From IMG/VR virus record IMGVR_UViG_3300045988_010208: a stretch of DNA of 64,000 bases; one strand, given 5' to 3'. The first letter of the stretch is position 1. Each line of letters opens with the position of its first letter. This DNA is from a virus. Lineage: Duplodnaviria > Heunggongvirae > Uroviricota > Caudoviricetes. Below, one piece after another: positions 5,033 through 5,869 of the stretch. Made by a program: the position numbers and the translations under genes. The notes beneath the pieces are model-generated. The model had not been told where the DNA came from and did no database searches. It saw nothing but the letters and a program-made list of their open reading frames with translations.

Positions 5033-5104
5033 CAGAAGACCAATTACAGCAAACTTAATCTACTCATCTGACACGAAATCGGACAAAGAAGATATTTGGT
5101 CTGG
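5033..5104. repeat. Spacer element A: CAGAAGACC...CAGCAA motif closed by 7-bp stem AGACCAA/TTGGTCT and GGTCTGG
   Basis: Member of a 4-copy family (A-D) between tRNA genes; stem arms covary between copies. Confidence 0.6.
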
Positions 5105-5115
5105 TCATTAAGAAT

Positions 5116-5192
5116 TGCGGGTATAGAGAAAGGGCGTCTCACATGTCTCATTAGCATGGTATCGGCAGGTTCGACTCCTGCACCCGCCTCCA
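5116..5192 (+). tRNA. tRNA-Met (anticodon CAT; Met, fMet or Ile-lysidine not distinguishable)
   Basis: Anticodon stem CATGT/GCATG loop CTCATTA, T-arm GCAGGTTCGACTCCTGC, acceptor pairs with ACCCGCC, CCA. Confidence 0.65.
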
Positions 5193-5198
5193 ATTTTG

Positions 5199-5259
5199 CA
5201 GAAGACCGTATGCAGCAATAAACTACTTTTTGCGGATAAAAGAAAAAAACACGGTCTGG
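5199..5259. repeat. Spacer element B: CAGAAGACCGT...CAGCAA...ACGGTCTGG
   Basis: Same motif as element A but stem arms AGACCGT/ACGGTCT (compensatory change). Confidence 0.6.
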
Positions 5260-5270
5260 CAATGTATTAA

Positions 5271-5347
5271 GGTTAGGAAGCACATAAGGTATGTGCGGTC
5301 GCCTGTTAAGCGAATGGCACAGGGTTCGAATCCCTGACTAACCGCCA
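5271..5347 (+). tRNA. tRNA-Asn (anticodon GTT)
   Basis: Acceptor GGTTAGG/ACTAACC, anticodon loop CTGTTAA, T-arm CAGGGTTCGAATCCCTG, CCA. Confidence 0.7.
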
Positions 5348-5418
5348 AATTTAGGAGAGAAGCGATTGCTCACCGATTTGTAAGGTGCAAGTCCTTAGCC
5401 TGAATAGAATAATAAAAT

Positions 5419-5506
5419 GTGTCGTTATCCCGTAGATGGTAGCGGTGGGGACTGTAAATCCCTTGTCATTGAGACTCGGTAGGTTCGACTCCTACACGGC
5501 ACACCA
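5419..5506 (+). tRNA. tRNA-Tyr (anticodon GTA), long variable arm
   Basis: 88 nt; acceptor GTGTCGT/ACGGCAC, anticodon stem GGGGA/TCCCT loop CTGTAAA, long variable arm, T-arm GTAGGTTCGACTCCTAC, CCA. Confidence 0.65.
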
Positions 5507-5512
5507 AATAAA

Positions 5513-5589
5513 GGTTATGTAGTTTAACTGGTTAAAATACTCCCCTGTCACGGGAGATGATGTGAGTTCAAGTCTCATCGTAACCGCCA
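5513..5589 (+). tRNA. tRNA-Asp (anticodon GTC)
   Basis: Acceptor GGTTATG/CGTAACC, anticodon stem CTCCC/GGGAG loop CTGTCAC, T-loop GAGTTCAAGTCTC, CCA. Confidence 0.7.
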
Positions 5590-5650
5590 ATTTTGAGAGG
5601 GCTATTTAGTCCCTCCCTTAAAGAGTTCTTACGAGTATTCTTTAAAGGAG

Positions 5651-5724
5651 CAGAAGACCAAATTCAGCAAGTTACTTAAAATTTCAAGCCAATTTAATTT
5701 TGAAAAATTTAAAACTTGGTCTGG
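5651..5724. repeat. Spacer element C: CAGAAGACCAA...TTCAGCAA...TTGGTCTGG
   Basis: Third copy of motif family; stem AGACCAA/TTGGTCT. Confidence 0.6.
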
Positions 5725-5737
5725 CTCAACAAATTTA

Positions 5738-5869
5738 CAGAAGACCGTTTACAGCAAAACTTTAACAATCTATTTCTCCGGTAAAGAAAAGGCGAAGGTT
5801 CGATTCCTTCACTCGGCAGATGTCGAGTTGGTGTAATGGTAGCACTTAAGATGATAAACAACGGTCTGG
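5738..5869. repeat. Spacer element D: CAGAAGACCGTT...ACAGCAA...AACGGTCTGG, containing tRNA-half-like segments in permuted order
   Basis: Stem AGACCGTT/AACGGTCT (8 bp); interior has T-arm-like GAAGGTTCGATTCCTTC + ACTCGGC followed by GTCGAGT + D-arm-like TGGTGTAATGGTAGCAC. Confidence 0.55.

What the first reader, a model, noticed from the sequence alone, without database searches (positions are those of the whole stretch)
5033..5869. Four spacer elements in the tRNA array share a conserved box and a closing stem whose sequence covaries
Elements A-D (5033-5104, 5199-5259, 5651-5724, 5738-5869) each begin with CAGAAGACC-nnn-T-n-CAGCAA-(A)ACTT and end with GGTCTGG. The 2-3 nt after AGACC differ between copies (AA, GT, AA, GTT), yet the downstream arm is always the exact reverse complement (TTGGTCT, ACGGTCT, TTGGTCT, AACGGTCT). 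Compensatory change of this kind indicates selection for base pairing, as in a structured RNA or a recognised DNA hairpin. The interiors are otherwise unrelated. No named phage element that I know matches this.
Basis: seen in the sequence. Interest (0 to 1): 0.7.

Follow-up and report, generated by a model that had tools for sequence, protein, structure and literature searches.

The report
Phage Y RNAs hidden between tRNAs
The four spacer elements in this Felix O1-like phage's tRNA array are most likely Y RNAs, the small RNA partners of the Ro60-like protein encoded just upstream, and the same RNA signature sits beside that protein family in very diverse phages without, as far as I could find, having been described.

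Summary
The window is a Felixounavirus. Four plus-strand elements (full extents 5030-5107, 5196-5262, 5648-5727, 5735-5872) share one design. A 4-bp lower stem that covaries is followed by an internal loop (5' AGA / 3' G), a 7-bp helix P1 (AGACCnn/nnGGUCU), a 3-nt spacer and a CAGCAA box; the interior is variable. Element D's interior is a circularly permuted tRNA mimic (V hairpin, T arm, closed acceptor hairpin, D arm), which is the layout of bacterial YrlA Y RNAs. The ORF just upstream (3283-4698, DUF2828/DUF7788) is predicted to fold like Ro60. The same rule (7-bp covarying helix, 3 nt, C-N-GCAA, bulged G) recurs on the gene's strand beside DUF2828 genes in 53 of 70 distant phage loci (97 plus-strand versus 5 minus-strand hits). 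It also recurs in cultured Enterococcus, Bacillus, Mycobacterium, Yersinia, Sinorhizobium and Listeria phages. A related phage lacking the gene (Erwinia M7) lacks the elements. The best explanation is Y-RNA-like partners of a divergent phage Ro60, released from the tRNA operon transcript. They lack the canonical GNCGAA motif and fall below Rfam's YrlA threshold, so I class them as a new variant of a known kind. Binding and expression are inferred, not shown.

The parts
3283..4698 (+). Ro60-like protein gene (471 aa; Pfam DUF2828 + DUF7788; N-terminal helical repeat domain plus C-terminal vWA domain with DVSSS MIDAS-like motif). Ortholog of Bas63 gp130. Proposed protein partner of the RNAs.
   Evidence: Pfam. 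PHROG 850 'RNA-binding protein'. AlphaFold model pLDDT 86.8, pTM 0.86. The 12 best Foldseek PDB hits are all full-length Ro60/TROVE proteins, E 1e-8 to 1e-6, TM up to 0.66. vWA_Ro60 Pfam hits in 7 of 38 family members. 98.1% identical to bas63_0130.
4717..4837 (+). Two sigma-70-like promoters (4717-4745 and 4808-4837) that would drive the tRNA / Y-RNA transcription unit. The next strong promoter is at 6268-6296, and no + strand terminator-like site lies between them.
   Evidence: Consensus scan only. The number of promoter-like sites in the region does not exceed shuffles, so this is weak evidence.
5030..5107 (+). Element A (small Y-RNA-like). Lower stem 5030-5033/5104-5107; loop AGA 5034-5036 and bulged G 5103; P1 5037-5043/5096-5102; spacer 5044-5046; CAGCAA box 5047-5052. 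It starts 4 nt after the tRNA-Glu CCA end and ends 8 nt before tRNA-Met.
   Evidence: CM R1 hit 35.2 bits, E 1.4e-4. A small hairpin around the box covaries among orthologs: AUUA/UAAU, AUUG/UAAU, AUUG/CAAU.
5196..5262 (+). Element B (small Y-RNA-like). Lower stem 5196-5199/5259-5262; AGA 5200-5202; G 5258; P1 5203-5209/5251-5257; spacer 5210-5212; box 5213-5218. It lies between tRNA-Met and tRNA-Asn.
   Evidence: CM R1 hit 38.9 bits, E 2e-5. The lower stem changes from uGc/gCa to uAc/gUa among orthologs.
5648..5727 (+). Element C (small Y-RNA-like). Lower stem 5648-5651/5724-5727; AGA 5652-5654; G 5723; P1 5655-5661/5716-5722; spacer 5662-5664; box 5665-5670.
   Evidence: The lower stem shows a G-C to G-U change in diverged orthologs. 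CM R1 did not recover it at E<=1.
5735..5872 (+). Element D (YrlA-like Y RNA with a permuted tRNA mimic). Lower stem 5735-5738/5869-5872; AGA 5739-5741; G 5868; P1 5742-5748/5861-5867; box 5752-5757; CUAU 5770-5773; V hairpin 5773-5789; T arm 5794-5810 (GAAGG-UUCGAUU-CCUUC); closed acceptor hairpin 5811-5828; D arm 5831-5845 (GUGU-AAUGGUA-GCAC).
   Evidence: Fold. Rfam tRNA partial hit 22 bits over the V and T arms. The acceptor hairpin has three complementary versions among orthologs. The architecture matches that described for YrlA in PMC4201824. CM R1 built from it finds the same design in distant phages.

Best explanation
The four elements are genes for Y-RNA-like non-coding RNAs, three short ones and one YrlA-type tRNA mimic. 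They are the RNA partners of the phage's divergent Ro60 protein, encoded immediately upstream.

Inferred pathway: the elements are transcribed with the tRNAs from the promoters at about 4717-4837. They are then freed when RNase P and the host 3'-processing enzymes cut out the neighbouring tRNAs; the elements start 3-4 nt after a tRNA 3' CCA end and stop 8 nt before the next tRNA. The terminal bulged helix (lower stem, 5' AGA / 3' G, P1 AGACCnn/nnGGUCU) and the adjacent single-stranded U-W-CAGCAA box form the conserved module, which the Ro60-like ring protein probably recognises. The variable interiors would act as effector modules.

By analogy with Deinococcus, Salmonella and Thermus-phage Ro60 particles, these modules could tether the protein to host enzymes such as PNPase or gate access to its cavity. 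The tRNA-like interior of D could engage tRNA-handling proteins.

Shown computationally: the RNA architecture and its covariation, the Ro60 fold of the protein, and the co-occurrence, shared strand and co-absence of RNA and gene. Inferred: expression, processing, binding and downstream function.
For: 1. Structure is under selection. The lower stem and P1 covary in Felixounaviruses. The model-guided alignment of 59 distinct sequences is 92.5% paired versus 58% in shuffles and at most 46% when slid, with 31 of 31 pairs showing double changes.
2. The neighbouring protein has the Ro60 fold, and some family members hit Pfam vWA_Ro60.
3. A non-circular association test supports the link. In the gene flanks of 70 distant loci (29-47% protein identity) there are 120 CAGCAA on the gene strand versus 20 on the other strand. 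58-66% have a perfect 6-mer complement at offsets 10 or 9, versus 4-10% at offsets 11-14 and about 10-14% elsewhere. The next base is G in 65 of 70. Unbiased k-mer enrichment picks out (U)ACAGCAAA.
4. The full descriptor gives 97 plus-strand versus 5 minus-strand hits, is present in 53 of 70 loci, and places 79 of 97 hits within 1 kb of the gene. There are 58 distinct P1 arms among 122 unique elements.
5. The tRNA-like module recurs: a T-loop occurs in 15 of 21 mid-size elements and 0 of 75 small ones, with the same permuted layout in L036, L058, L088, L090 and L054.
6. A covariance model built only from Felixounavirus D elements finds full-length hits in distant loci, 67 of 68 on the gene strand. 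It also hits cultured phages: Enterococcus phiSHEF13 68 bits, Bacillus MrDarsey 55 bits (inside its tRNA array), Mycobacterium Rumpelstiltskin 47 bits, plus Yersinia, Sinorhizobium and Listeria phages.
7. Rfam's curated YrlA model gives sub-threshold matches with low E-values exactly on these elements: L036 38.2 bits, E 2e-7 in a focused scan; L105 44.9 bits.
8. Co-absence: Erwinia phage M7 (same subfamily, 27 tRNAs at the syntenic site) has neither the gene nor any element in its array.
9. Literature: Bas63 gp130 (98% identical) was reported as Ro60-like and as a counter to the Ppl defence. The authors only guessed that some annotated tRNAs might be Y RNAs.
Against: There are no expression, end-mapping or binding data; everything about the RNA-protein contact is inferred from co-occurrence. 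The canonical Ro60-binding motif (GNCGAAN0-1G / GGUCCGA) is absent. Element D gets no Rfam YrlA hit even at E<=10, and A-C have no tRNA-like part. The protein has no sequence-level TROVE match, so its Ro60 identity rests on a predicted fold. In the PhageMaP preprint gp130 alone, from a plasmid or inserted in T7, restored plaquing on Ppl hosts, so the phage RNAs are not required for that phenotype. 17 of 70 distant loci show no element under the descriptor, although the covariance model finds hits in some of these and several have short flanks. The promoter evidence is only a consensus scan that does not exceed shuffles.
Confidence: 0.75

Rival explanations
1. The elements are binding sites that titrate or autoregulate the Ro60-like protein (operator or decoy sites on transcripts). 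They would not be cofactors that give the particle its function.
For: Several distant loci have a minimal hairpin with CAGCAA in its loop overlapping the start of the Ro60-like gene: L034/L035, L038, L043 and L086. gp130 works against Ppl without the phage RNAs.
Against: In the window the elements lie downstream of the gene, behind their own promoter-like sites, in a unit that encodes only tRNAs. They occur in 2-5 copies with elaborate, conserved interiors, including a full tRNA mimic, which a simple operator would not need. This rival still assumes that the protein binds the box.
Confidence: 0.1
2. The elements are cis-acting processing or stability signals of the tRNA operon (RNase III, E or P guide hairpins, or insulators between tRNAs), unrelated to the upstream protein.
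For: They sit at fixed short distances from tRNA ends, 3-4 nt after CCA and 8 nt before the next tRNA. Phage tRNA clusters are known to be processed from polycistronic precursors (established knowledge, for example T4).
Against: The same module follows the DUF2828 gene in many phages where no tRNA is adjacent, upstream or downstream of the gene. Most tRNA junctions in this same array have no such element. The M7 array, with 27 tRNAs, has none.
Confidence: 0.07
3. The elements are decayed or rearranged tRNA genes (pseudo-tRNAs) left by recombination in the array, with no function of their own.
For: Element D contains recognisable T, D and acceptor-like arms and scores 22 bits with the tRNA model. 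tRNA arrays in these phages are recombination-prone and carry HNH endonuclease insertions.
Against: A-C have no tRNA-like sequence. The box and helix are conserved across phages of different bacterial phyla with compensatory changes. The permuted order with a closed acceptor hairpin is itself conserved and covaries.
Confidence: 0.03
4. The elements are DNA-level sites: targets for homing endonucleases or recombinases, or hairpins used in replication or packaging.
For: They have inverted-repeat character, and an HNH endonuclease gene is nearby at 6686-7033.
Against: G-U pairs are frequent in the helices and would be A-C mismatches on the other strand. The strand asymmetry is strong: 97:5, and 67 of 68 model hits. 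The helix sequence is free to vary while pairing is kept, which does not suit a sequence-specific nuclease site.
Confidence: 0.02

Closest known systems
Bacterial YrlA / YrlB Y RNAs of Salmonella Typhimurium and Mycobacterium smegmatis (Chen et al. 2014, PMC4201824; Rfam RF02553)
   Same: They are encoded next to, and on the same strand as, a Ro60-type gene, often several per locus. The 5' and 3' ends pair to form a terminal helix beside a short conserved motif. At least one RNA per genome carries a tRNA mimic in the order V hairpin, T arm, closed acceptor hairpin, D arm, preceded by YUAY; shorter companions lack it. The Rfam YrlA model gives sub-threshold matches with low E-values on relatives in the same box family.
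   Different: The conserved motif is U-W-C-N-GCAA lying 3 nt after a 7-bp helix with a bulged G, not GNCGAAN0-1G within the 5' strand. The partner protein is DUF2828-type with no TROVE sequence match. Window element D does not hit RF02553 at E<=10, and relatives score 27-45 bits against a gathering score of 69. Here the RNAs are embedded in a phage tRNA array.
Yrl1 / Yrl2 of Thermus phage phiLo with phage Ro60 (PMC12135203; PDB 9KOP, 9L5Y)
   Same: A phage-encoded Ro60-fold protein with two or more phage-encoded Y-like RNAs next to the gene. Its solved structures are among the best structural matches of the window protein.
   Different: The phiLo RNAs were picked by the CGAA motif in an internal bulge and have no reported tRNA array context. 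Protein sequence identity in the structural alignment is only 14-17%. Binding and a PNPase complex were shown experimentally there; nothing has been shown here.
Metazoan Y RNAs bound by Ro60 (Xenopus and human; PDB 1YVP)
   Same: Small RNAs whose paired ends form a conserved bulged helix that is the Ro60 binding site, with a variable interior that recruits other factors (established knowledge).
   Different: The conserved helix sequence differs (GGUCCGA/UUGACU with a bulged C). Metazoan Y RNAs have no tRNA mimic, are Pol III transcripts, and have no CAGCAA box.
Stable RNAs C and D (species 1 and 2) of the phage T4 tRNA gene cluster (from my own knowledge; not tested here)
   Same: Small stable RNAs of unknown function that are co-transcribed with, and processed from, a phage tRNA cluster.
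   Different: T4 has no known Ro60-like gene. I did not compare the sequences, so any relationship is untested.

Membership tests
Y RNA (functional class: RNAs bound by Ro60 proteins) | Physically bound by a Ro60 protein in vivo | not testable with these tools
   This needs immunoprecipitation or CLIP of the protein (Bas63 gp130 or the Felix O1 ORF86 product), or in vitro binding assays.
Y RNA (functional class) | Partner protein is a Ro60 (ring of helical repeats plus vWA domain) | tested here: met
   A confident model (pLDDT 86.8) has its 12 best PDB matches all full-length Ro60/TROVE, TM up to 0.66. vWA_Ro60 hits occur in 7 of 38 relatives. At sequence level TROVE is not detected, so this is met by predicted fold only.
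Y RNA (functional class) | 5' and 3' ends pair into a terminal helix with a bulge or internal loop and conserved nucleotides (the Ro60 binding site) | tested here: met
   The design is a 4-bp lower stem, 5' AGA / 3' G, then a 7-bp P1. G at -9 is 98% conserved, its partner C 98%, and the trailing G occurs in 65 of 70.
Y RNA (functional class) | Canonical binding-site sequence (GGUCCGA in animals; GNCGAAN0-1G in bacteria) | tested here: not met
   None of the four elements carries the motif at the 5' strand. The conserved motif is instead U-W-C-N-GCAA.
Bacterial YrlA (Rfam RF02553) | Encoded within a few kb of the Ro60 gene on the same strand | tested here: met
   The elements begin 332 nt downstream of the gene's stop on the same strand. 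Family-wide, 79 of 97 lie within 1 kb and the strand ratio is 97:5.
Bacterial YrlA (Rfam RF02553) | tRNA-like domain: V, T arm, closed acceptor stem-loop, D arm, with tRNA-type conserved loop nucleotides | tested here: met
   Element D has UUCGAUU in the T loop, AAUGGUA in the D loop, a covarying acceptor hairpin and CUAU before V. Elements A-C lack it, as does YrlB.
Bacterial YrlA (Rfam RF02553) | Scores at or above the curated Rfam gathering threshold (69 bits) | tested here: not met
   Window D has no hit at E<=10. Relatives score 26.7-44.9 bits.
tRNA | Cloverleaf with open acceptor stem and anticodon arm, detected by tRNA finders | tested here: not met
   ARAGORN calls none of the four. 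Rfam tRNA gives only a partial 22-bit match in D, below the threshold of 29. The acceptor stem is closed by a loop and the arm order is permuted.

The most novel reading that the evidence does not exclude
The C-N-GCAA box plus bulged helix would define a previously unrecognised, very widespread class of phage Y RNAs. This class would be the dedicated partner of the DUF2828 branch of the Ro60 superfamily, which is found in about 1.4% of cultured phage genomes (710 of 50,697 records) across Proteobacteria, Firmicutes, Actinobacteria and Campylobacter phages. The RNAs would occur as arrays of 1-5 copies with interchangeable effector modules (plain hairpins, permuted or non-permuted tRNA mimics, 240-nt forms). 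They would often be embedded in tRNA operons so that tRNA-processing enzymes release them. Together with the protein they would form a ribonucleoprotein that phages use to manage RNA damage or counter host defences such as Ppl.
Probability: 0.55. Interest if true: 0.85.

Novelty: new variant of a known kind. Interest (0 to 1): 0.74.

Why it matters
Ro60 and Y RNA particles are studied from bacteria to humans, yet the RNA partners of the large DUF2828 branch of the Ro60 superfamily have not been reported in the literature I could search. The protein in this phage genus (Bas63 gp130) was recently shown genetically to counter the Ppl defence system and to improve T7 growth. Its authors could only guess that some annotated tRNAs might be Y RNAs.

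This analysis points to specific unannotated RNAs with defined ends, a defined conserved module and testable mutations. It also gives their coordinates in the experimentally tractable phages Felix O1 and Bas63. It supplies a simple sequence and structure rule that finds candidate partners in Listeria, Enterococcus, Bacillus, Staphylococcus, Campylobacter, Vibrio and mycobacterial phages, several of which are used in therapy or biocontrol.

It also corrects annotation. The spurious minus-strand ORFs over these spacers in Felix O1 (ORF91, ORF94) and Bas63 (bas63_0137, bas63_0138) are probably not genes.

Tried and rejected
- **Too-narrow descriptors.** My first stem descriptor (7-bp arm starting at RRAYC) found only 4 plus-strand hits, no better than shuffles. 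A 6-bp GAYC-restricted version was still too narrow (17 plus, 10 minus). The correct register came from unbiased k-mer enrichment and an offset scan.
- **Rfam.** Gathering thresholds gave nothing but tRNAs in the window and tRNA or tmRNA in ten distant loci.
- **Sequence searches for Ro60.** Searches of the protein against PDB sequences, as a single sequence and as a profile, found no Ro60. NCBIfam gave nothing meaningful. Only fold comparison showed the relationship.
- **Alignment.** MAFFT alone misaligned the acceptor and D arms of distant members, so I used a covariance model to align them. The resulting pair counts lean towards the model structure, which is why I also report the non-circular tests.
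- **Limits of model R1.** It did not recover window element C at E<=1.
- **Literature.** Supplementary tables of the 2014 YrlA paper and the 2020 Annual Review were not available, so I could not check which 22 phages that survey covered. The PhageMaP text reports nothing for bas63_0137 or bas63_0138.
- **Not attempted.** I considered a reverse scan of public viral contigs with the RNA pattern, but the conserved part has too few fixed bases for the 14-base minimum.
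Full report
**What the window is.** The region is the start of the tRNA array of a Felix O1-like phage (Felixounavirus). The best public match is Salmonella phage BPS15Q2 at 98% identity, and 339 phage records match. ARAGORN finds 25 tRNAs on the plus strand between 4864 and 10286.

**Checking the observation.** The pattern CAGAAGACC-N5-CAGCAA occurs exactly four times without mismatch (5033, 5199, 5651, 5738), all on the plus strand. Nothing else comes closer than 3 mismatches. 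Each copy closes with the exact complement of AGACC plus the two following bases, then GG. All four fold with that closing stem. A register-fixed descriptor finds these four plus one coding-region hit in 64 kb on both strands, against a shuffled mean of 0.43.

It is also incomplete. The true design is therefore a lower stem, an internal loop 5' AGA / 3' G, a 7-bp helix P1, a 3-nt spacer and then CAGCAA. I tested this on 27 distinct 5'+3' end pairs from 28 Felixounavirus loci plus the window, chosen only by the invariant anchors. The four lower-stem pairs are paired in every sequence, using UA/GC, UA/AU/GC/GU, AU/GC/GU and CG. The two positions beyond them are unpaired, and sliding the partner by one to three columns drops pairing from 87% to 21-47%.

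**Element D is a tRNA mimic.** Its interior folds into a 5-bp hairpin with a 7-nt loop, a T arm (GAAGG-UUCGAUU-CCUUC), a hairpin ACUCGGC-AGAU-GUCGAGU and a D arm (GUGU-AAUGGUA-GCAC). This is a tRNA whose acceptor stem is closed by a loop and whose ends open between the D arm and the anticodon-side hairpin.
- Among orthologs the acceptor hairpin exists in three fully different but complementary versions.
- This order (motif, YUAY, V, T, closed acceptor stem-loop, D) is the published description of bacterial YrlA Y RNAs (PMC4201824).

**The neighbouring gene.** ORF 3283-4698 ends 332 nt before element A. It matches Pfam DUF2828 and DUF7788 and PHROG 850 'RNA-binding protein'. Sequence searches against PDB find nothing. 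An AlphaFold model built from 38 homologs is confident (pLDDT 86.8, pTM 0.86).
- Its 12 best Foldseek matches in the PDB are all full-length Ro60/TROVE proteins. They include Xenopus Ro60 with RNA, Deinococcus Rsr and the Ro60 of Thermus phage phiLo (E 1e-8 to 1e-6, TM up to 0.66).
- Seven of the 38 family members also hit Pfam vWA_Ro60 weakly.
- The protein is thus a divergent Ro60 by predicted fold.

**Does the RNA travel with the protein?** I fetched 98 viral-contig loci encoding relatives of the protein. Seventy of them are distant, at 29-47% identity.
- Unbiased 7-mer enrichment in the gene flanks singles out (U)ACAGCAAA. It is present in the flanks of 50 of 70 loci, versus 42 of 70 in eight times more remaining sequence.
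- The gene-strand flanks hold 120 CAGCAA; the opposite strand holds 20.
- The 6-mer at offset 10 or 9 upstream has a perfect reverse complement within 300 nt in 58-66% of cases. The rate is 4-10% at offsets 11-14 and about 10-14% elsewhere.
- The base after the 3' arm is G in 65 of 70 cases, and the seventh pair forms in 58 of 70.
- The helix register (7 bp at -10 to -4, then 3 nt, then the box, then a bulged G) is identical to that of the window's elements.
- Across all loci there are 122 unique elements with 58 different P1 arms. G at -9 is 98% conserved and U at -2 is 95% conserved.
- The full descriptor gives 97 gene-strand hits versus 5 on the opposite strand. 53 of 70 loci carry 1-5 copies, and 79 of 97 hits lie within 1 kb of the gene.
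- Sizes fall into three classes: about 55-72, 113-136 and 214-261 nt. A T-loop is present in 15 of 21 mid-size elements and in none of 75 small ones. Several distant mid-size elements show the same permuted T / acceptor hairpin / D layout as element D.

**Model-based confirmation.** I built a covariance model from nine Felixounavirus D variants only.
- It recovers window elements D, B and A, plus full-length matches in many distant loci. 67 of the 68 hits are on the gene strand.
- On the resulting alignment of 59 distinct sequences, 92.5% of cells pair versus 58% in shuffles and at most 46% when slid. All 31 pairs show compensatory double changes. The caveat is that this alignment is fitted to the model.
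- The box also occurs as CCGCAA, CUGCAA and CGGCAA.

**Cultured phages.** The protein family is present in 710 of 50,697 phage records. These include Mycobacterium cluster L phages, whose depositors already call it 'Ro-like RNA binding protein'. They also include Listeria, Staphylococcus, Enterococcus, Campylobacter, Bacillus, Vibrio KVP40-type and rhizobial phages.

The model finds full-length hits in the unannotated gaps beside the gene:
- Enterococcus phiSHEF13: 68 bits.
- Bacillus MrDarsey: 55 bits, in a tRNA-array spacer between tRNA-Glu and tRNA-Ile.
- Mycobacterium Rumpelstiltskin: 47 bits.
- Yersinia P778: several hits between tRNAs.
- Sinorhizobium phiM12 and Listeria LP-125.

**Relation to the curated YrlA family.** Rfam RF02553 gives no hit to window D even at E<=10. 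It does give sub-threshold matches with low E-values exactly on relatives of the same box family: L036 38.2 bits (E 2e-7 in a focused scan), L105 44.9 and 34 bits, L108 35 bits and L088 27 bits. The gathering score is 69. In the L036 alignment the YrlA model covers the tRNA-like core, but the P1 5' arm and the CAGCAA box lie outside it. The effector domain is therefore shared with YrlA, while the presumed protein-binding module is different.

**Co-absence.** Erwinia phage M7 belongs to the same subfamily (Ounavirinae) and has 27 tRNAs at the syntenic position.
- It has no relative of the protein anywhere in its genome: tblastn and a family-profile hmmsearch both return nothing at E<=1.
- It has no CAGCAA on the array strand and no full-length model hit.
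- The only descriptor hits are four scattered chance matches inside coding sequence on both strands.

**Literature.**
- The PhageMaP preprint (10.1101/2024.10.10.617714) reports that Bas63 gp130 resembles Ro60 structurally and counters the Ppl defence. [quoted passage not shown]
- MZ501086.1 is Bas63. Gene bas63_0130 is 98.1% identical to the window ORF, and the four elements are present in its tRNA spacers, partly under the annotated minus-strand ORFs bas63_0137 and bas63_0138.
- Felix O1's own record leaves the elements unannotated or under ORF91 and ORF94.
- I found no paper that identifies these RNAs or the CAGCAA module. The library is limited to open-access papers and bioRxiv.
- A caution from the same preprint: gp130 alone restores T7 plaquing on Ppl hosts, so the RNAs are not needed for that activity.

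**How it most likely works.** Promoter-like sites lie at 4717-4745 and 4808-4837. No terminator-like site occurs before the next promoter at 6268. This is weak evidence, but it is consistent with one transcript covering tRNA-Pro to tRNA-Ile together with the four elements.

The elements start 3-4 nt after a tRNA CCA end and stop 8 nt before the next tRNA. RNase P and the 3'-end maturation enzymes would therefore release them with very short tails, which exonucleases could trim back to the terminal helix. I infer that the Ro60-like protein binds the bulged helix and the adjacent single-stranded box.

By analogy with RYPER complexes in Deinococcus, Salmonella and Thermus phage phiLo, the variable interiors would recruit or gate other factors. 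The tRNA mimic in D is a candidate handle for tRNA-binding enzymes. The recurrent neighbourhood of tRNA arrays, tmRNA genes and an RtcB ligase suggests a role in RNA damage control during the conflict with host defences. That last step is speculative.

**Rivals.** I considered four alternatives: autoregulatory or decoy sites, tRNA-operon processing signals, decayed tRNAs and DNA-level sites. Each explains part of the data, but none explains the full combination. That combination is the strand-specific association with the gene in the absence of tRNAs, the G-U-tolerant covariation, the multi-copy arrangement with elaborate interiors, and the co-absence in M7.

**Verdict.** The finding is real. 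It is best read as a new variant of Y RNA, paired with a divergent phage Ro60. It is unannotated in public records and, as far as I could search, undescribed. My confidence in the Y-RNA-partner reading is about 0.75. Expression and binding remain to be shown.

Noticed in passing
window 5871-6018: A 148-nt almost perfect long hairpin (-50 kcal/mol, z -6.35) lies between element D and tRNA-Lys. It contains a CAGACC-UUAAGCAA-GUCUGG mini-hairpin. It is present in most close Felixounavirus loci but absent from L002 and the diverged L017-L022. Function unknown.
   Followed up: partly
window 6195-6668: A strong promoter-like site (6268-6296, 11 of 12) precedes a region with weak Rfam tmRNA and permuted-tmRNA hits (24 and 16 bits). 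A tRNA-like sequence at 6590-6668 scores 31 bits with Rfam tRNA but is not called by ARAGORN. Bona fide tmRNA genes lie near Ro60-like genes in L085:8760-9252 and L092:11284-11705.
   Followed up: no
L103:1429-1980 (Listeria phage LP-125): A sub-threshold ROOL RNA match (87.4 bits, gathering score 99.1, E 3e-16) lies between tRNAs about 1 kb upstream of the DUF2828 gene. An RtcB-like RNA ligase gene lies 1.3 kb downstream of that gene.
   Followed up: no
L034 and L035 (KVP40-type; box 27-28 nt upstream of the gene start), L038 (42 nt upstream), L043 (45 nt), L086 (89 nt): Minimal hairpins with CAGCAA in the loop lie over or just before the start codon of the Ro60-like gene. This suggests the protein may repress its own translation through a mimic of its RNA partner.
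   Followed up: no
L037, L039-L041, L044-L052, L057, L059 (downstream of the gene): A small element of about 55 nt is followed within 2-3 nt by an element of about 240 nt. The larger one has a conserved 3' module (AUUCCGCCGGGAAGAAAAUCACGAAC). This is a third size class of the family with an unknown interior fold.
   Followed up: partly
L079:8192-8314 and L080:8329-8427: Some family members embed a non-permuted D arm / anticodon-like arm / T arm set, with P1 taking the place of the acceptor stem. The tRNA mimic has therefore been built in two different topologies.
   Followed up: partly
window 5348-5418 and 5590-5648: Two other tRNA spacers fold better than shuffles (z about -2.3). The first is present in only some Felixounavirus loci (an indel).
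   Followed up: partly
window 6686-7033: An HNH endonuclease ORF lies inside the tRNA region (Pfam HNH, weak, E 0.0045). Related records show HNH insertions at various places in the array.
   Followed up: no
AF320576.1 (Felix O1) ORF91 and ORF94; MZ501086.1 bas63_0137 and bas63_0138: Annotated minus-strand 'hypothetical protein' ORFs overlie tRNAs, the Y-like elements and the long hairpin. They are probably annotation artefacts.
   Followed up: partly
window 72-1205 (minus strand): A 377-aa ORF contains three tandem repeats (…ALPVITQQP..Q.V.EGG…GATGYQWKK…GSYTCVV…) that look Ig-like, possibly a Hoc-like capsid decoration protein. No domain search was run on it.
   Followed up: no
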